Shown here piece after piece: positions 2,909 to 28,805 of a stretch of 64,000 bases of DNA. The position numbers were made by a program, and so were the translations under genes. A model generated the notes under the pieces. It searched no databases. It was not told the origin of the DNA and was given only the letters and a program-made list of their open reading frames with translations. Origin of the DNA: a virus (Duplodnaviria > Heunggongvirae > Uroviricota > Caudoviricetes); IMG/VR virus record IMGVR_UViG_3300035210_000151; one strand, 5' to 3'. How positions within the stretch are numbered: the stretch's first letter is position 1; the number at the start of each line of letters is the position of its first letter.

Positions 2909-2967
2909 GACCAAAATTTAAATGTTTGCTATACTCTACCCATAGAAAACAAACAGGATTAAATCAA

Positions 2968-3876
2968 ATGTTTAAAGTAATTACGCATTCTCAACAATTT
3001 CACCTTGACGAATTGATGGCTGTTGCCCTTTTGGATCTGTATGTATTCAAGGGTGAAAAGTTTGAACTCATTCGCACCCGAGATAAAACGATTGTTGCAG
3101 CAGGTCAAGATGACGCCAACACCTTTGTGATTGACGTAGGTTTGAAATATGACCCAGCTATGCGTAACTTTGACCATCACCAGAACGACAGTAGCCTTTG
3201 CTGGCCTGATGGGGTGCCATTGTCTTCTTGTGGTATGGTTTGGAAATGGCTTCGTGATAACAAGATTCTTCACCAGAAGATGAATGATGACACAATGAAT
3301 ATCTTTGAACGTGATTTTATTCGCCGTGTAGATATGCAAGATAACGGTATTTCAAAATTCAGTGATTGTAATTTCTTGGTAATGTATAACCGTAAGCCCG
3401 ATGATCCGCGTGAGCAAGACAAACAGTTCATGTATGCACTGAAAGCGGCAAAGTCACATTTGATTAACTATTTTGCTTATGTTCGTGGTAACATGAAAGC
3501 GGAAAAATCCATTGTAAAAGCTATCAAAAACAGTGAGAAATATAAAGATATTGTAGTCTGTGATAGTAACATCAAGGATGCTGCCAAACGTATTGCTCAG
3601 TTGACTGATAAAAAGATGGTAATCTATCCTCACAGTAATGGGGCATGGGCTATCGAAACCGTTCCATTGAATGCGAACGATGAATATTCAAAGAAAGTTC
3701 CAGCTCCAAAAGAGTGGTTGGGATTGAGCGGCGAAGAATTGGAAAAAGCTTCTGGTATTAAAGGCTTGTTCTTTTGCCATAAAGGGGCTTTTATCACCAT
3801 GTTTAGAGGCGAGCTTGATGATGCGATTAAAGTTGCTCGTGTAATGATTTTGAAACATGAAGGCCACATTCAGTAG
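2968..3876 (+). CDS. MYG1 (UPF0160) family exonuclease/metal-dependent hydrolase
   Basis: THSQQFHLDE, VIDVG, FDHHQ and FCHKGAF motifs; start moved to ATG after CAGGA. Confidence 0.8.
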   Translation: MFKVITHSQQFHLDELMAVALLDLYVFKGEKFELIRTRDKTIVAAGQDDANTFVIDVGLKYDPAMRNFDHHQNDSSLCWPDGVPLSSCGMVWKWLRDNKILHQKMNDDTMNIFERDFIRRVDMQDNGISKFSDCNFLVMYNRKPDDPREQDKQFMYALKAAKSHLINYFAYVRGNMKAEKSIVKAIKNSEKYKDIVVCDSNIKDAAKRIAQLTDKKMVIYPHSNGAWAIETVPLNANDEYSKKVPAPKEWLGLSGEELEKASGIKGLFFCHKGAFITMFRGELDDAIKVARVMILKHEGHIQ

Positions 3877-14675: not shown

Positions 14676-15104
14676 ATGAAAAGTGTTATTTTGTTTCTAG
14701 ACTTTGATGGCGTGTTTCATCCATTGATGAGCAGTGGCCTTAAATTCGTGGATCTCCCAAATTTTGAAAATTTTATTCGTAAACATAAAGACCGTTTTGA
14801 TTTTAAACTGGTGATTAGTAGCACTTGGCGTCGAGAATATACCTTATCTCAGATTTCCAAATTCTTTTCACCAGACATTGCTCTTTTGCTGGTAGGTGTT
14901 ACGCCTGTTCTCAATACCATTGGTGACGGTGTTCGTTATGAAGAAGCACAACAATGGCGTGCCTTCAATGACATGACTTCGCATTGGTTTGCTCTGGATG
15001 ATGACCATTACGCATGGGATCGCGTTGAACAGCTTGTTTGGTGTCATGATAAATTTCAAGAGCGTGAAATCGGTATTTTGGAAGAGAAACTTAACGCACT
15101 TTAA
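14676..15104 (+). CDS. HAD-superfamily phosphatase, Swiss-Army-Knife RNA-repair-like type
   Basis: LFLDFDGVFH, VISSTWR, ALDDD motifs. Confidence 0.8.
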   Translation: MKSVILFLDFDGVFHPLMSSGLKFVDLPNFENFIRKHKDRFDFKLVISSTWRREYTLSQISKFFSPDIALLLVGVTPVLNTIGDGVRYEEAQQWRAFNDMTSHWFALDDDHYAWDRVEQLVWCHDKFQEREIGILEEKLNAL

Positions 15105-15997: not shown

Positions 15998-16459
15998 ATG
16001 ATTAAAAAAGAATGTGTATTATTTTTGGACTTTGATGGAGTTCTCCATTTCTTTTTCCCAGAAGAAAATAGTACCGATGAAGAAAATCAGTTTTTCTATT
16101 TTATCCCACAGTTTGAACGCTTTATCAGAGCTTTTTCTGACAGGGTTAACTTTAAAATTGTGATTTCTAGCACTTGGCGTGACAACAAAACGTTTAATCA
16201 ACTTAAAGCACCTTTTTCAAAAGATATTCAAGAAATGATTGTAGGTGTTACTCCCAATCATTATGATAACAGTGAAGGTAGCCGTTTACGTGAAGCCCAA
16301 GAATGGTTAATGGTTAATCAATATAATGGTTCGTGGATAGCGATTGACGATAATGCTAATATTTGGTATAATGCCCCTGAGTTATTTTTGTGCGAGAATG
16401 GTCTTAACCAATCTGTTATTGACGATTTTATTGCTCGCTTTGACCTATTAAGGAGTTAA
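15998..16459 (+). CDS. HAD-superfamily phosphatase, RNA-repair-like type (second copy)
   Basis: LFLDFDGVLH, VISSTWR, AIDDN motifs. Confidence 0.8.
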   Translation: MIKKECVLFLDFDGVLHFFFPEENSTDEENQFFYFIPQFERFIRAFSDRVNFKIVISSTWRDNKTFNQLKAPFSKDIQEMIVGVTPNHYDNSEGSRLREAQEWLMVNQYNGSWIAIDDNANIWYNAPELFLCENGLNQSVIDDFIARFDLLRS

Positions 16460-26384: not shown

Positions 26385-26413
26385 TTGAATTTTTTTAAGC
26401 GGGCTGCTATAAT
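26385..26413 (+). promoter_or_regulatory. sigma70 promoter of the Ser/Tyr leader
   Basis: TTGAAT-17 nt-TATAAT with TG extended -10; inverted repeat CCGCTTGA/TTAAGCGG overlaps the -35. Confidence 0.75.
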
Positions 26414-26447: not shown

Positions 26448-26498
26448 ATGAAACCTACATTTGCTGTATCCTATTATTATTCATCATATTCTAGTTAA
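26448..26498 (+). CDS. Ser/Tyr-rich attenuator leader peptide MKPTFAVSYYYSSYSS
   Basis: GGAG RBS at 26435; codons TCC TAT TAT TAT TCA TCA TAT TCT AGT then TAA. Confidence 0.8.
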   Translation: MKPTFAVSYYYSSYSS

Positions 26499-26587
26499 CT
26501 GACCAGAGTAGAGGTCAGTTATGGCCTCGAATTCTTGGATAGTAATTATCTTAGACCCTTTGAAGGCCACCTTCAGAGGGTTTTTTT
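26496..26587 (+). promoter_or_regulatory. Ribosome-mediated transcription attenuator (four competing hairpins)
   Basis: A 26496-504:26513-521; B 26511-517:26522-528; antiterminator C 26522-531:26559-569; terminator D 26555-565:26571-581 plus T7. Confidence 0.8.
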
Positions 26588-26627
26588 ATGTCCATAGTGG
26601 CAGGGTTAAGTTCAACCTAAAACAATG

Positions 26628-26677: not shown

Positions 26678-26706
26678 TTGACAAAGACGAAAGAAGTTGA
26701 TAGAAT
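26678..26706 (+). promoter_or_regulatory. Strong sigma70 promoter directly upstream of tRNA array
   Basis: TTGACA-17 nt-TAGAAT with AT-rich UP-element-like region. Confidence 0.85.
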
Positions 26707-26758: not shown

Positions 26759-26846
26759 GGAAGATTGGTCGAGTGGCCGATGGCGTCAGTCTTGAAAACT
26801 GAAGGGTGTAACAGCTCCGTGAGTTCGAATCTCACATCTTCCTCCA
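26759..26846 (+). tRNA. trnS: tRNA-Ser(UGA) copy 1
   Basis: Acceptor GGAAGAT/ATCTTCC, loop CT-TGA-AA, long V arm, TTCGAAT, encoded CCA; unusual U73. Confidence 0.93.
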
Positions 26847-26868
26847 AATTTAGTTTCAAAAGTATCAT

Positions 26869-26952
26869 GGTTAGTTGGCAGAGTGGACGATTGCGGGGGA
26901 CTGTAAATCCCTTCCGAAAGGCACGGTGGTTCGAATCCATCACTAACCACCA
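26869..26952 (+). tRNA. trnY: tRNA-Tyr(GUA) copy 1
   Basis: Acceptor GGTTAGT/ACTAACC, loop CT-GTA-AA, A73, CCA. Confidence 0.93.
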
Positions 26953-26974
26953 AATTAGTTGTAAACTGTTTTAT

Positions 26975-27058
26975 GGGAGTTTCGCATAGTGGCCGATTGC
27001 ACGGGACTGTAAATCCTGCTCGAAAGACTCGGTGGTTCGAATCCATCAACTCCCACCA
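26975..27058 (+). tRNA. trnY: tRNA-Tyr(GUA) copy 2
   Basis: Acceptor GGGAGTT/AACTCCC, loop CT-GTA-AA, A73, CCA. Confidence 0.93.
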
Positions 27059-27086
27059 AATTTAGATGTAATCGTAAGAACAATAT

Positions 27087-27175
27087 GGACGCATTTCCTG
27101 TCATCCGCCTGTAAAGCGGACGCCTTTATAAGACAGGTCGGTTGGCGAGAGGTTCGAATCCTTGTGCGTTCACCA
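27087..27175 (+). ncRNA. Atypical tRNA-Tyr(GUA)-like RNA lacking a D hairpin, potential pseudoknot
   Basis: Acceptor GGACGCA/TGCGTTC, stem TCCGC/GCGGA with CT-GTA-AA loop, T loop TTCGAAT, ACCA end; D region only 10 nt, and its CCTGTC is complementary to GACAGG in a 27-nt variable arm. Confidence 0.75.
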
Positions 27176-27197
27176 AATTAGTTGTAAAACCGTATAT

Positions 27198-27285
27198 GGA
27201 AGCTTGGCCGAGTGGTTTAAGGCAACAGTCTTGAAAACTGTCGGGTGTAATAGCCCCGTGAGTTCGAATCCCACAGCTTCCGCCA
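27198..27285 (+). tRNA. trnS: tRNA-Ser(UGA) copy 2
   Basis: Acceptor GGAAGCT/AGCTTCC, G73, CCA. Confidence 0.93.
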
Positions 27286-27308
27286 GATTAGATACAATGT
27301 TTTATTAT

Positions 27309-27392
27309 GGGTGTTTCGCATAGAGGCCGATTGCGGCTGGCTGTAAACCAGCATCGAAAGACACGGTGGTTCGAATCCATCAACACCCACCA
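27309..27392 (+). tRNA. trnY: tRNA-Tyr(GUA) copy 3
   Basis: Acceptor GGGTGTT/AACACCC, stem GCTGG/CCAGC, A73, CCA. Confidence 0.93.
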
Positions 27393-27405
27393 AATTTATA
27401 TTTAT

Positions 27406-27458
27406 GGAGAGTATGGGGCTGTTGTTATCTCGTAACAATGGTTAACCGCTATCCACCA
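27406..27458 (+). ncRNA. CCA-terminated mini-hairpin RNA, copy 1 (53 nt)
   Basis: GGAGAG...CTATCC-ACCA acceptor-like stem plus 11-bp hairpin; same spacer context as the tRNAs. Confidence 0.65.
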
Positions 27459-27462
27459 ACAT

Positions 27463-27550
27463 GGAAGCGTGGCCGAGTGGTTTAAGGCAACAGTCTTGAA
27501 AACTGTCGGGTGTAACAGCCCCGTGAGTTCGAATCTCACCGCTTCCGCCA
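27463..27550 (+). tRNA. trnS: tRNA-Ser(UGA) copy 3
   Basis: Acceptor GGAAGCG/CGCTTCC, G73, CCA; near-identical to copy 2 with compensatory 7:66 change. Confidence 0.93.
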
Positions 27551-27556
27551 AATTAT

Positions 27557-27607
27557 GGGGAGAAGGGTTGTCTTTTATTTATAGAAGGCGATATCCGCTA
27601 CCCACCA
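27557..27607 (+). ncRNA. CCA-terminated mini-hairpin RNA, copy 2 (51 nt)
   Basis: GGGGAG...CTACCC-ACCA; covaries with copy 1; 9-bp hairpin. Confidence 0.65.
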
Positions 27608-27627
27608 TTTCATCGTCAAAAAACTTC

Positions 27628-27658
27628 AAGAACAACGCAATGTTGTTCTTTTTTTATT
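27628..27658 (+). terminator. Terminator of tRNA array
   Basis: AAGAACAAC-GCAAT-GTTGTTCTT plus T-run. Confidence 0.8.
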
Positions 27659-27732: not shown

Positions 27733-28805
27733 ATGAAAATGAAGTTAAGATATTTTTTAGTGTTATTGTTATCACTTGTCATATCAACAAGTCAAGCAAA
27801 CTCTTTAACAAGTCACATACCTTTTTTTCCGTCTAAAAAAACTATTATTAAAGGTGTTCTGGTAACTGGAACTATTGGAGTGCTTGGCTACTATGTTTAT
27901 TCACAATTATCTAAATTTATTGAAAATACAATAAAAAAAATGATGAGGGAAAAATATCTGACTGGGAAACAGCTAATCTTATAGCTAAAGAAATTGATAA
28001 AATACTCAATAATCCTAAAAAAACAGATCAACAAAAAAGTCAAAGTGTTGTTGAAGCTCAACAATTGTTGCTTTATTATGCCATTGCGTACTATGAACCT
28101 AATGGAAACGATATTTATGATATTGCAATTAGGACCGCAAAAAAAGCAAATATTTATACTGGTGATTTCGATTATGAGTTACAACAAGGCATTAAAATGA
28201 CGACTGAAATTATGCGTAATATGATTTCATTAGCTAATGAAAAAGATATGGAAGATACTAAGTCAAAAAGAAATAAGTGTGATATTAATGATATAGCTGC
28301 TAGAACATATATTTACAATTCATTAAATCCAATTGATCCATTGTACACGGATGTTAATCGACCTATACGTGAATTTGACACTGGAGCTTATAAAAACTTA
28401 AACTTTGTAACCAAAAAATATGCAAAATTGTATAAAATAAAAGATAATTTTGATCATGATCATATTCCGTCTTTTGCTTCATTAAAAACTTATTTAGAAA
28501 ATAGAGATCAATATGTAATAAATTTTGATAATAAATTAAGGAACGTTATTCAACAAAATGGCACTGTAGTTGCAATTAATCAAGCAATGTACGCTGCTGG
28601 GCGAACGTATAAGGGGCGAGCTACATCTACTATGATAAGAGATTCAAAAGATCTTAGAAAAGCAACTATAAAAGATTTTAAGATGCATTATTATTATTAC
28701 AAAAAAAATGGATCAAGTAACCCTAGTTTTGAAACTTTATTTAATAAAGCTTTTATACAAACGTATCAAAGAAATAAAATGATGTGTTTATATGTTAACC
28801 GATAG
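27733..28805 (+). pseudogene. Frameshift-split exported polymorphic-toxin-like gene (signal peptide + TM + DHIPS nuclease-like domain); -1 shift at A8 27933-27940 gives 357 aa
   Basis: Frame 1 ORF 27733-27984 overlaps frame 3, which is open from 27924 to 28805; junction ATA AAA AAA A; DHDHIPSFASLK...RTYKGR resembles HNH-like toxin tips (from memory). Confidence 0.55.

What the first reader, a model, noticed from the sequence alone, without database searches (positions are those of the whole stretch)
26759..27550. tRNA array of only two anticodons, in triplicate with diversified bodies
Seen: three Ser(UGA) and three canonical Tyr(GUA) genes, all with encoded CCA. Anticodon loops are invariant (CU-UGA-AA, CU-GUA-AA). 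The Tyr anticodon stems all differ (GGGGA/TCCCT, CGGGA/TCCTG, GCTGG/CCAGC), as do their acceptor stems. Ser copy 1 has U73 while the others have G73. Codon-usage supplementation predicts many different anticodons rather than redundant copies of two. Inference: dosage plus body diversity hedges against tRNases that read stem or acceptor determinants.
Basis: partly seen in the sequence, partly recalled or inferred. Interest (0 to 1): 0.7.

Follow-up and report, generated by a model that had tools for sequence, protein, structure and literature searches.

The report
Serine/tyrosine-only tRNA operon, huge phage
A giant uncultured phage-like genome carries one strongly promoted operon holding only serine and tyrosine tRNA genes, the two tRNA types that a known family of bacterial defence nucleases destroys, so it is most likely a back-up supply of these tRNAs, though no function has been tested.

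Summary
Three tRNA-Ser(UGA) and three tRNA-Tyr(GUA) genes, all with encoded CCA, lie at the stated coordinates. Loops are invariant and stems differ through compensated changes.

They form one operon (promoter 26678, terminator 27628) that also holds three CCA-ended tRNA-like RNAs. A conserved mini-ORF ending in SYYYSSYSS precedes it.

Four related lineages, including a 437-kb IMG/VR virus record, carry arrays of only Ser and Tyr tRNAs. Their Ser anticodons vary (UGA, CGA, GCU, AGA). That 437-kb record has 21 further tRNAs elsewhere. SerRS and TyrRS genes lie upstream in relatives.

Published PtuAB/Septu-type nucleases cut tRNA-Tyr or tRNA-Ser, and phages escape by tRNA dosage. The anti-tRNase supply reading is therefore the best one (about 0.5).

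"Body diversity as a hedge" is not shown. Ser bodies are conserved. Tyr stems diverge no faster than four-fold degenerate sites. Recombination next to a homing-endonuclease gene explains the differences between strains.

The host is unknown and nothing has been tested experimentally. This scan has already reported the same module on other DNA (e1-5386155, e1-5440461, e1-5386933). I found no published description.

The parts
26385..26413 (+). promoter-like site in front of the mini-ORF (TTGAAT-17-TATAAT, TG-extended)
   Evidence: 10 of 12 matches. This is a consensus match only. The G001 relative has an extended -10 at the same place.
26448..26498 (+). mini-ORF MKPTFAVSYYYSSYSS*; nine consecutive Ser/Tyr codons at 26469-26495
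   Evidence: The Ser/Tyr run is conserved at the same position in four lineages (SYYYSSYSS, SSSYYYSYS, SYYYSYYS), while the rest of the peptide diverges.
26499..26530 (+). two overlapping hairpins: CTGACC/GGTCAG, and GAGGTCA/TGGCCTC
   Evidence: One base of the shared strand (A here, G in G001) changes together with both of its partners (T to C in each). This supports two mutually exclusive helices.
26553..26590 (+). intrinsic terminator (14-bp stem plus T run) between the mini-ORF and the array promoter
   Evidence: It is conserved in relatives.
26678..26706 (+). array promoter TTGACA-17-TAGAAT
   Evidence: 11 of 12 matches, TG-extended. Both hexamers are invariant in four lineages while the spacer varies.
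26759..26846 (+). tRNA-Ser(UGA) copy 1, U73
   Evidence: Identical in L087. The same body carries anticodon AGA in L085 and CGA in G001.
26869..26952 (+). tRNA-Tyr(GUA) copy 1
   Evidence: 100% identical to the G001 copy. Positions 7-74 are 95.6% identical to the coliphage phAPEC8 tRNA-Tyr.
26975..27058 (+). tRNA-Tyr(GUA) copy 2
27087..27175 (+). unit X: CCA-ended tRNA-like RNA with a Tyr anticodon stem-loop (CTGTAAA), a T arm and a 7-bp acceptor stem, but no D arm
   Evidence: There are three versions among relatives. Their anticodon stems are fully compensated (TCCGC/GCGGA, TCGCT/AGCGA, GCGGT/ACCGC) and the loop is invariant.
27198..27285 (+). tRNA-Ser(UGA) copy 2, G73; one A.C mismatch in the T stem
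27309..27392 (+). tRNA-Tyr(GUA) copy 3
   Evidence: It differs between haplotypes A and B of the same population.
27406..27458 (+). m1: 53-nt CCA-ended hairpin RNA
   Evidence: Present in all lineages, with a compensated change in the closing helix.
27463..27550 (+). tRNA-Ser(UGA) copy 3, G73
   Evidence: Identical to copies in L085 and G001.
27557..27607 (+). m2: 51-nt CCA-ended hairpin RNA, similar to m1
   Evidence: In haplotype B and in L087/L085 it is absent, and a PD-(D/E)XK endonuclease gene sits in its place.
27628..27656 (+). intrinsic terminator that closes the operon

Best explanation
The stretch is one transcription unit of a huge phage-like genome. It has a near-consensus sigma-A-type promoter, nine units (three tRNA-Ser(UGA), three tRNA-Tyr(GUA), three CCA-ended tRNA-like RNAs) and a terminator. 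It is a conserved module that supplies the two long-variable-arm (class II) tRNAs Ser and Tyr at high dosage. I infer that its job is to keep phage translation running when the host's tRNA-Ser and tRNA-Tyr pools are depleted. The most plausible cause of depletion is a Septu/PtuAB-type (type I-A retron) HNH nuclease, whose known substrates are exactly these two isotypes. The phage's own SerRS and TyrRS would make the supply independent of host charging. The mini-ORF with nine Ser/Tyr codons, followed by alternative hairpins and a terminator, probably adds read-through transcription when these codons are decoded slowly. What is shown: the anatomy, its conservation, the compensated evolution of the stems, and the linkage to the aaRS genes. 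What is inferred: depletion by a host nuclease, rescue by dosage, and attenuation. The differences between copies are best read as old paralogues kept foldable. Alleles are shuffled between related phages by recombination next to a mobile endonuclease gene. A proven hedge against nucleases it is not.
For: Six tRNAs and their features. Single promoter and terminator; the hexamers are invariant in four lineages. Arrays holding only Ser and Tyr occur in the window, in haplotype B (L015, L018), in L087, in L085 and in G001/L084, although four-fold degenerate sites between these lineages are 58-68% diverged. Pairing is kept in 270 of 276 Tyr pairs and 332 of 336 Ser pairs, so the copies are functional genes. 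Codon use does not single out Ser or Tyr. TyrRS lies 1.7 kb before the window start (L007). SerRS lies 13.4 kb upstream of TyrRS in close relatives. Both are present in G001, 16 and 28 kb from its array. RNA-repair genes are present: two HAD_SAK_2 genes in the window and an Rnl1 ligase in G001 and L025. [quoted passage not shown] A related type I-A retron nuclease depletes all tRNA-Ser (PMC12475279). MenT3 needs the long variable loop of tRNA-Ser (PMC11162799). The Ser/Tyr mini-ORF is conserved in four lineages.
Against: The host is unknown, and no nuclease, cleavage or rescue has been observed. The variable arm, where Septu cuts E. coli tRNA-Tyr, is nearly invariant here (6% divergence), and whether its compact GAAA-capped form resists cleavage is untested. 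This window's array has no reader for AGY Ser codons (24.5 per 1000 codons), so alone it could not replace a fully destroyed Ser pool. T5 tRNA-Ser did not rescue T5 from the FORC82 retron (PMC12475279). Huge phages often carry many tRNAs and aaRS genes, and G001 also has ThrRS, TrpRS and 21 other tRNAs, so general translational autonomy could suffice as an explanation. Constrained folds keep the terminator intact in every ribosome position tried.
Confidence: 0.5

Rival explanations
1. Translational autonomy without any defence. The array simply raises decoding capacity for Ser and Tyr codons, matched to the phage's own SerRS and TyrRS, as part of the large translation gene set typical of huge phages. 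The restriction to two isotypes reflects tandem duplication of an ancestral Ser-Tyr pair.
For: SerRS and TyrRS lie on the same genome arm. G001 has 27 tRNAs plus ThrRS and TrpRS. Tyr makes up 5.3% of residues and TAT is the 7th most used codon. In relatives the Ser copies cover all Ser codon types, which points to decoding as the selected function. A mini-ORF that senses Ser/Tyr decoding fits supply control as well as it fits defence.
Against: AAA, GAA, ATT, GAT, TTT and AAT are all used more than TAT, and TCA ranks 18th, yet none of these has a dedicated multi-copy operon here. Three copies with the same anticodon add dosage, not decoding breadth. The restriction to Ser and Tyr persists over saturated divergence. 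TrpRS in G001 has no matching tRNA-Trp, so pairing of aaRS with tRNA is not a general rule in this lineage.
Confidence: 0.22
2. Phage-inflicted shut-off. The phage itself inactivates host tRNA-Ser and tRNA-Tyr, or host SerRS and TyrRS, to stop host translation. It then replaces them with a private set of tRNAs and synthetases that its own weapon does not touch.
For: Cognate tRNA and aaRS pairs exist for exactly these two amino acids. Ser1 and the Ser(GCU) copy carry the unusual U73 in all lineages. The phage-type tRNA-Tyr gave no hit against E. coli genomes at E <= 0.001 and is 64% identical to E. coli tyrT.
Against: No phage nuclease or modifying enzyme directed at tRNA or aaRS was identified in the window. 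Ser2 and Ser3 look like ordinary bacterial tRNA-Ser with G73. I found no precedent in the papers read.
Confidence: 0.1
3. The body diversity itself is non-adaptive or serves genome stability. The copies are old paralogues drifting under a pairing constraint. Only diverged copies persist, because identical tandem repeats are deleted by recombination. Differences between strains come from gene conversion linked to a homing endonuclease.
For: Tyr stem divergence (42% and 25%) is not above the 58-68% seen at four-fold sites. Tyr1 and Ser3 are 100% identical between the window and G001, so the paralogues predate the split of the lineages. Metagenome assemblies break inside the array. The second half of haplotype B carries alleles identical to L087/L085 (X and Ser2) next to an inserted PDDEXK_5 gene that resembles I-Ssp6803I. 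The 5' half of haplotype B Tyr3 equals that of Tyr2, which points to conversion between paralogues.
Against: In the same operon and the same lineages, Tyr anticodon stems change about four times faster than Ser anticodon stems, although SerRS, from established knowledge, does not read that stem. The Tyr-like unit X shows the same stem turnover with an invariant loop.
Confidence: 0.55
4. The window is not viral. It belongs to a cellular genome, and the array holds that organism's own Ser and Tyr tRNA genes.
For: The same module sits on metagenome contigs of 520 kb, 604 kb and 1.86 Mb. No terminase (Terminase_6N) or T4-type capsid (Gp23) Pfam match was found in G001.
Against: The 437-kb record G001 has no 16S rRNA, ribosomal protein L2, translational GTPase or RNA polymerase beta subunit. 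IMG/VR classes it as a virus, with CheckV completeness 98%. Most window ORFs have no Pfam family, and those with matches hit phage families, including one PHROG annotated as a virion structural protein. The best protein match for one window gene is to Bacillus phage G and Brevibacillus phage Sundance.
Confidence: 0.06

Closest known systems
T5/SP15 phage tRNA-Tyr against retron-Eco7 (Ec78) PtuAB (Azam et al. 2024, PMC11555353)
   Same: It is a phage-encoded tRNA-Tyr expressed from a strong phage promoter. It works by restoring the tRNA-Tyr pool that a PtuAB nuclease depletes, and translation function is required for the rescue.
   Different: T5 has one tRNA-Tyr inside a cluster of about 25 mixed tRNAs. 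Here there is a dedicated operon of three Tyr and three Ser genes, with cognate aaRS genes and a Ser/Tyr mini-ORF in front. Nothing has been tested here and the host is unknown.
T6 tRNA-Tyr amplification by the homing endonuclease SegB against Septu (Chihara et al. 2026, PMC13096335); T4 SegB (PMC2330249)
   Same: There are multiple copies of tRNA-Tyr next to a homing endonuclease gene in a tRNA region. Dosage is the escape principle. The endonuclease drives exchange of flanking tRNA alleles.
   Different: The T6 amplifications are recent identical repeats. Here the copies are 78-94% identical to each other and are conserved as distinct paralogues across lineages with saturated synonymous divergence. 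The endonuclease is a PD-(D/E)XK enzyme of the I-Ssp6803I type, not GIY-YIG, and it is absent from this window's haplotype.
Type I-A retron of E. coli FORC82, whose HNH nuclease depletes all tRNA-Ser (PMC12475279)
   Same: It shows that the PtuAB-type effector family also takes tRNA-Ser as a substrate, which gives a single rationale for a Ser-plus-Tyr array.
   Different: In that system T5's tRNA-Ser was itself cut and did not rescue the phage. No such retron is known for the unidentified host here.
tRNA regions of T5 and T4 with stable tRNA-like RNAs and homing endonucleases (NC_005859 annotation)
   Same: tRNA genes are interleaved with small stable tRNA-like RNAs of unknown function, and with endonuclease genes.
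   Different: Those clusters cover most amino acids. This one covers two, and its tRNA-like unit X displays a Tyr anticodon loop.
Leader-peptide transcription attenuators (his, trp, thr operons; Rfam RF00514 for hisL)
   Same: A short ORF with a run of the relevant codons is followed by overlapping alternative hairpins and an intrinsic terminator.
   Different: The downstream genes are tRNAs rather than biosynthetic enzymes. A strong promoter lies between the terminator and the genes. An antiterminator was not recovered by constrained folding.

Membership tests
Bacterial-type class II tRNA-Tyr(GUA) | Cloverleaf that scores above the Rfam tRNA gathering threshold | tested here: met
   54.8, 52.3 and 53.5 bits against a threshold of 29. 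ARAGORN agrees.
Bacterial-type class II tRNA-Tyr(GUA) | 7-nt anticodon loop with U33, anticodon GUA and a purine at position 37 | tested here: met
   The loop is CTGTAAA in all three copies.
Bacterial-type class II tRNA-Tyr(GUA) | Long variable arm, G1-C72 and A73 (bacterial TyrRS identity set, from established knowledge) | tested here: met
   a 12-nt variable region of the form NYCGAAAGRCNC with a GAAA cap, plus G1-C72 and A73 in every copy. The arm is shorter than E. coli's 13 nt.
Bacterial-type class II tRNA-Tyr(GUA) | Charged with tyrosine by TyrRS | not testable with these tools
   A phage TyrRS gene is present, but there is no assay.
Bacterial tRNA-Ser(UGA) | Cloverleaf with a long variable arm (stem of at least 3 bp) | tested here: met
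   52.8-60.7 bits; 16-nt variable region with a 4-bp stem.
Bacterial tRNA-Ser(UGA) | G73 discriminator | tested here: not met
   Ser2 and Ser3 have G73. Ser1 has U73 in all four lineages. T5 tRNA-Ser(UGA) also has U73.
Phage anti-defence tRNA (T5/SP15, T6 tRNA-Tyr type) | Phage-encoded tRNA of the isotype that a defence nuclease depletes | tested here: inconclusive
   The isotypes match the published substrates of PtuAB-type nucleases. The host and its defences are unknown.
Phage anti-defence tRNA (T5/SP15, T6 tRNA-Tyr type) | High dosage: strong promoter and/or several copies | tested here: met
   At sequence level only. The promoter matches 11 of 12 positions and is conserved in four lineages. 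There are three copies of each isotype.
Phage anti-defence tRNA (T5/SP15, T6 tRNA-Tyr type) | Restores plating on a host that carries the nuclease | not testable with these tools
   This needs an experiment.
Recent SegB-type segmental amplification | Tandem repeats that are identical or nearly identical | tested here: not met
   Tyr copies are 78-87% identical to each other. Ser1 differs from Ser2 and Ser3, which are 94% identical (5 differences in 88 nt). The distinct paralogues are conserved across lineages whose four-fold sites are 58-68% diverged.
Leader-peptide transcription attenuator | Short ORF with a run of codons for the sensed amino acids | tested here: met
   Nine consecutive Ser/Tyr codons at 26469-26495, conserved in four lineages.
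Leader-peptide transcription attenuator | Mutually exclusive hairpins that decide whether a downstream terminator forms | tested here: inconclusive
   Two overlapping hairpins share a base that covaries with both partners in G001, and a terminator is present. However, constrained minimum-energy folds keep the terminator in every state.
Homing endonuclease of the I-Ssp6803I PD-(D/E)XK type (haplotype B and relatives, not this window) | Family membership by sequence | tested here: met
   PF11645 at E 2.7e-11. PDB 2OST at E 1.6e-4. That 2OST is I-Ssp6803I is from my own knowledge.
Homing endonuclease of the I-Ssp6803I PD-(D/E)XK type (haplotype B and relatives, not this window) | Presence/absence polymorphism with a tract of diverged flanking sequence | tested here: met
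   Flanks are 99-100% identical, but 27060-27620 is only 85-94% identical, with divergence rising towards the insertion. The gene is present in L015, L017, L018, L021, L085 and L087, and absent in the window, L019 and G001.

The most novel reading that the evidence does not exclude
The operon is the core of a self-regulated 'class II tRNA insurance' system of huge phages. A Ser/Tyr-codon test ORF senses loss of these tRNAs. Extra transcription then joins a strong constitutive promoter. Multiple Ser and Tyr tRNAs, charged by the phage's own SerRS and TyrRS, replace the destroyed host pool. CCA-ended tRNA mimics (X, which displays a Tyr anticodon loop, and m1/m2) act as decoys or competitors for the nuclease. 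A tRNA-region homing endonuclease shuffles tRNA alleles between co-infecting relatives. Together these would form a multi-layer counter to Septu/retron-type tRNases that has not been described.
Probability: 0.25. Interest if true: 0.85.

Novelty: new variant of a known kind. Interest (0 to 1): 0.6.

Why it matters
Phage tRNAs as counter-defence are a recent idea, and it rests on a few coliphage cases with one tRNA each. Here a natural, conserved module is restricted to exactly the two isotypes that PtuAB-type nucleases are known to attack. It comes with matching synthetases, a codon-run sensor ORF, tRNA mimics and a mobile endonuclease. If the reading holds, it would show that tRNA-Ser/Tyr-directed immunity is a major selective force outside enterobacteria. 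It would also offer compact GAAA-capped tRNA-Tyr bodies as candidate nuclease-resistant designs, and provide the first attenuator-like control of tRNA genes. If it does not hold, the module remains a clear example of isotype-specific translational autonomy in huge phages.

Tried and rejected
- **Window's own genome:** none is held. Metagenome and assembly records could not be searched as whole records.
- **Host identification:** the genome-contig scan with TyrRS gave only distant MAG hits at 36-44% identity. Cluster look-up gave no accession numbers or organism names. The host stays unknown, so phage codon use and tRNA bodies could not be compared with the host's.
- **IMG/VR:** an exact unit X pattern found nothing. 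The Tyr1 core pattern found only G001.
- **More distant relatives:** Metallophos homologues at 59-62% identity have no tRNAs within 10 kb, so the array could not be traced further. One of the five metagenome pattern hits (L086) was a chance match in GC-rich DNA.
- **Codon demand as full explanation:** not supported by the phage's own usage, but not excluded without the host.
- **Recent amplification:** rejected, because the copies are old paralogues.
- **Positive selection on Tyr stems:** not demonstrable, because the neutral yardstick is saturated.
- **T-box or other Rfam elements near SerRS, TyrRS and ThrRS:** none. Units X, m1 and m2 match no Rfam family.
- **Antiterminator:** constrained folding did not show loss of the terminator.
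- **E. coli genomes:** no hit at E <= 0.001 with the phage-type tRNA-Tyr.
- **Adjacent genes as part of the module:** the 357-aa and 147-aa genes next to the array are absent from L087 and G001, so I rejected them.
Full report
**Observation**

ARAGORN finds exactly six tRNA genes in the 64-kb window, all on the + strand between 26759 and 27550. Three are Ser(UGA) and three are Tyr(GUA). Rfam's tRNA model confirms all six at 52-61 bits, against a gathering score of 29.

All six end in encoded CCA. The anticodon loops are CTTGAAA in the Ser copies and CTGTAAA in the Tyr copies. Every difference between acceptor or anticodon stems is compensated, so these are working genes, not decayed copies.

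**Anatomy of the locus**

The six genes belong to a larger unit.
- A TTGACA-17-TAGAAT promoter (11 of 12 matches, TG-extended) lies at 26678-26706.
- An intrinsic terminator lies at 27628-27650.
- Between them are nine units, each preceded by (C/T)AT|G, and most followed by an AATTAG-like spacer.
- Three of the nine are not canonical tRNAs. X (27087-27175) has a 7-bp acceptor stem, a T arm and a Tyr anticodon stem-loop but no D arm. m1 (27406-27458) and m2 (27557-27607) are hairpins of about 52 nt that end in CCACCA. None matches an Rfam family.

Upstream of the promoter lie a terminator (26553-26583) and, before it, a mini-ORF, MKPTFAVSYYYSSYSS* (26448-26498). Its last nine codons are all Ser or Tyr.

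**What kind of genome this is**

- GC content is about 31%.
- Most ORFs have no Pfam family. Those with matches hit phage families.
- The best protein match for one gene is to Brevibacillus phage Sundance and Bacillus phage G.
- No whole genome is held for this window.
- Identical and near-identical contigs occur in several JGI and SRA metagenomes.

A relative in IMG/VR, here called G001, is 437,043 bp, with CheckV completeness 98%. It lacks 16S rRNA, ribosomal protein L2, translational GTPases and RNA polymerase beta. That argues against a cellular genome.

One caveat remains. The same module also lies on contigs of 520 kb, 604 kb and 1.86 Mb. I could not explain this.

**Conservation of the array**

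The population around the window has two haplotypes.
- In haplotype B (L015, L018, L017, L010, L021), Ser1, Tyr1 and Tyr2 are identical to the window.
- X, Ser2, Tyr3, m1 and Ser3 differ by 6-15%. The changes are compensated and the loops are unchanged.
- In haplotype B, m2 and the terminator are replaced by a 132-aa PD-(D/E)XK gene.
- The flanks are 99-100% identical, and divergence rises towards the insertion.
- That gene belongs to PF11645 and resembles PDB 2OST. From my own knowledge, 2OST is the homing endonuclease I-Ssp6803I, which comes from a tRNA-gene intron.
- The X and Ser2 alleles of haplotype B are identical to those of the more distant L087 and L085.

The difference between strains is therefore best explained by homing-type recombination that imports tRNA alleles. 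This parallels SegB in the T-even tRNA region (PMC2330249, PMC13096335).

Three more distant lineages carry the module at the syntenic place:
- G001/L084: Ser(CGA), Ser(GCU), Tyr, Tyr, an m-like unit, Ser(UGA), X, m1, Ser(AGA).
- L085: Ser(AGA), Ser(GCU), Tyr, Tyr, X, Ser(UGA), Tyr, m1, Ser(UGA).
- L087: the same layout as the window.

Four-fold degenerate sites in flanking genes differ by 58-68% between these lineages, so they are saturated. Even so, every array holds only Ser and Tyr. The promoter hexamers are invariant. The mini-ORF keeps its Ser/Tyr run. Tyr1 and Ser3 are 100% identical between the window and G001.

The same Ser1 body carries UGA, CGA or AGA in different lineages. 'Three times UGA' is thus one state of a flexible set.

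G001 has 27 tRNA matches. Twenty-one lie outside the array, including a further Ser(UGA), several Leu, and a CUA suppressor. In the window, and in 22 kb upstream of it in close relatives, there are no other tRNAs.

**Linked genes**

- A TyrRS gene ends 1.7 kb before the window start (L007; full-length relatives; tyrS equivalog).
- A SerRS gene lies 13.4 kb upstream of TyrRS in close relatives (serS equivalog).
- G001 has SerRS, TyrRS, ThrRS and TrpRS. SerRS lies 28 kb and TyrRS 16 kb from its array.
- The window has two HAD_SAK_2 RNA-repair-type genes.
- G001 and the L025 lineage have a T4 Rnl1-type RNA ligase.

**How the copies evolve**

I compared orthologous copies from four to five lineages, region by region.

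| Region | Tyr divergence | Ser divergence |
|---|---|---|
| Anticodon stem | 42% | 11.5% |
| Acceptor stem | 25% | 2% |
| D stem, variable arm, T arm, anticodon and T loops | at most 8% | at most 9% |
| D loop | 14% | 5% |

Standard pairing is kept in 270 of 276 Tyr pairs and 332 of 336 Ser pairs.

Stem diversification is real, then, but it is essentially a Tyr phenomenon. It does not exceed the saturated neutral yardstick. Part of it comes from conversion between paralogues: the 5' half of haplotype B Tyr3 equals that of Tyr2.

The variable arm (NYCGAAAGRCNC, with a GAAA cap) is shared by all the window's and haplotype B's Tyr copies and G001's Tyr_b, and by the tRNA-Tyr of coliphage phAPEC8. 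The phAPEC8 core is 95.6% identical to Tyr1. This arm differs from E. coli's 13-nt arm.

**Codon demand**

In 18,815 codons of the window, Tyr is 5.3% and Ser 7.1% of residues. TAT ranks 7th and TCA 18th among codons. AAA, GAA, ATT, GAT, TTT and AAT are all used more. Demand within the phage does not pick Ser and Tyr. Comparison with the host was impossible.

**Literature**

- Retron-Eco7 PtuAB depletes tRNA-Tyr. T5/SP15 tRNA-Tyr rescues, the rescue depends on promoter strength, and it needs a translationally functional tRNA (PMC11555353).
- Septu EcB88 cuts the variable arm of tRNA-Tyr at positions 48/49. T6 escapes by amplifying its tRNA-Tyr, driven by SegB (PMC13096335).
- A related type I-A retron nuclease depletes all E. 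coli tRNA-Ser. T5 tRNA-Ser does not rescue in that system (PMC12475279).
- MenT3 needs the long variable loop of tRNA-Ser (PMC11162799).
- T5's annotated tRNA region also holds stable tRNA-like RNAs and HNH homing endonucleases.
- Searches for a published Ser/Tyr-only phage array found none.

**Interpretation**

The best-supported reading, at about 0.5, is a dedicated high-dosage supply of the two class II tRNAs that PtuAB-type nucleases are known to attack. The phage's SerRS and TyrRS back it up, and the upstream mini-ORF may regulate it.

For the attenuator, two overlapping hairpins share a base that covaries with both of its partners in G001. Constrained folds, however, never lose the terminator, so attenuation is not shown.

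The 'hedge by body diversity' claim is not supported beyond what drift under a pairing constraint, selection against repeat collapse, and endonuclease-linked recombination would produce.

The rivals are plain translational autonomy (0.22), phage-inflicted shut-off with private replacement (0.1), and a cellular origin (0.06).

**Relation to earlier scan notes**

This scan has already reported the same module on other DNA (e1-5386155, e1-5386933, e1-5440461, e1-5399166, e1-5436445), and a Leu/Ser/Tyr class II array in another phage (e1-4593826).

My region-wise divergence figures agree with the earlier 'Tyr anticodon stems vary, Ser constant' result. My four-fold-site yardstick adds that this is not faster than neutral change. 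The notes on tyrS and serS in this genome (e1-1843150, e1-1843151, e1-1843165) changed my reading, and I verified them on overlapping or closely related contigs.

Noticed in passing
L087 (Ga0308158_10000001, 1,859,102 bp, positions 1,379,022-1,391,630); also L085 (520 kb) and L084 (604 kb): The same Ser/Tyr module and its syntenic flanks lie on contigs far larger than any known phage genome. The IMG/VR relative is 437 kb and lacks cellular core genes. This could be a prophage in a chromosome, a mis-assembly or a very large element; it is unresolved.
   Followed up: partly
window 26448-26498 and 26499-26590: A mini-ORF ends in nine Ser/Tyr codons and is followed by two overlapping hairpins and a terminator. 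It is conserved in four lineages, with one base covarying with both alternative partners. It looks like a leader-peptide attenuator placed in front of tRNA genes.
   Followed up: partly
window 27087-27175; L015, L087, L040 homologues: Unit X has three different, fully compensated anticodon stems among relatives, with an invariant CTGTAAA loop. Its acceptor stem also changes by compensated steps. It is a structured RNA under selection, possibly a tRNA-Tyr mimic.
   Followed up: partly
L015 8416-8811 (haplotype B); also L017, L018, L021, L085, L087: A 132-aa PD-(D/E)XK endonuclease gene (PF11645, similar to PDB 2OST) replaces m2 and the operon terminator. It shows presence/absence polymorphism between genomes that are otherwise 99-100% identical.
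   Followed up: yes
window 27733-28805 versus L015 8919-9992: The gene just downstream of the array is one intact 357-aa ORF in several related contigs. In the window it is split into 83-aa and 246-aa ORFs. It has no Pfam or PHROG match and is absent from L087 and G001.
   Followed up: partly
window 14676-15101 and 15998-16456: Two genes have the HAD domain of 'Swiss Army Knife' RNA-repair proteins (PF18143). Elsewhere in the window are MYG1 (2926-3876), an RNase_T exonuclease and a weak RNA ligase PHROG hit, whose positions I did not pin down.
   Followed up: partly
G001 375,947-376,017 and 389,163-389,234 (L050, L047): The 437-kb relative carries a tRNA with a CUA (amber suppressor) anticodon, and a tRNA that ARAGORN reads with a four-base anticodon (agaa). 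In the window, TAG ends only 4 of 66 long ORFs.
   Followed up: no
L040 3487-3574; L085 1250-1337 (minus strand): tRNA-Ser with anticodon AGA (A34). From my own knowledge, in bacteria A34 normally occurs only in tRNA-Arg(ACG). It arises here by a single change at position 34 on bodies that carry UGA in other lineages.
   Followed up: no
window 26869-26952 versus JX561091.1 59837-59920: The Tyr1 core (positions 7-74) is 95.6% identical to the tRNA-Tyr of coliphage phAPEC8, and 91-94% identical to those of Klebsiella, Serratia and Salmonella phages. It gave no hit against E. coli genomes at E <= 0.001. This suggests a widely shared 'phage-type' tRNA-Tyr with a GAAA-capped variable arm.
   Followed up: partly
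L017 151-235 and L018 674-758: In two haplotype B contigs the third tRNA-Tyr has a 7-nt tandem duplication (CACCCCT) at its 3' acceptor strand, giving two possible 3' ends.
   Followed up: no
P0001 and relatives (TyrRS), residues about 44-47: The class I signature reads HVGS instead of HIGH in the phage TyrRS and in all relatives checked, down to 55% identity. It is a family trait rather than a lesion.
   Followed up: partly
L080 1936-3558: A more distant relative, found through its Metallophos homologue, encodes a TROVE (Ro60-like) domain protein (weak precomputed hit). This is another RNA quality-control or repair theme in this group of elements.
   Followed up: no
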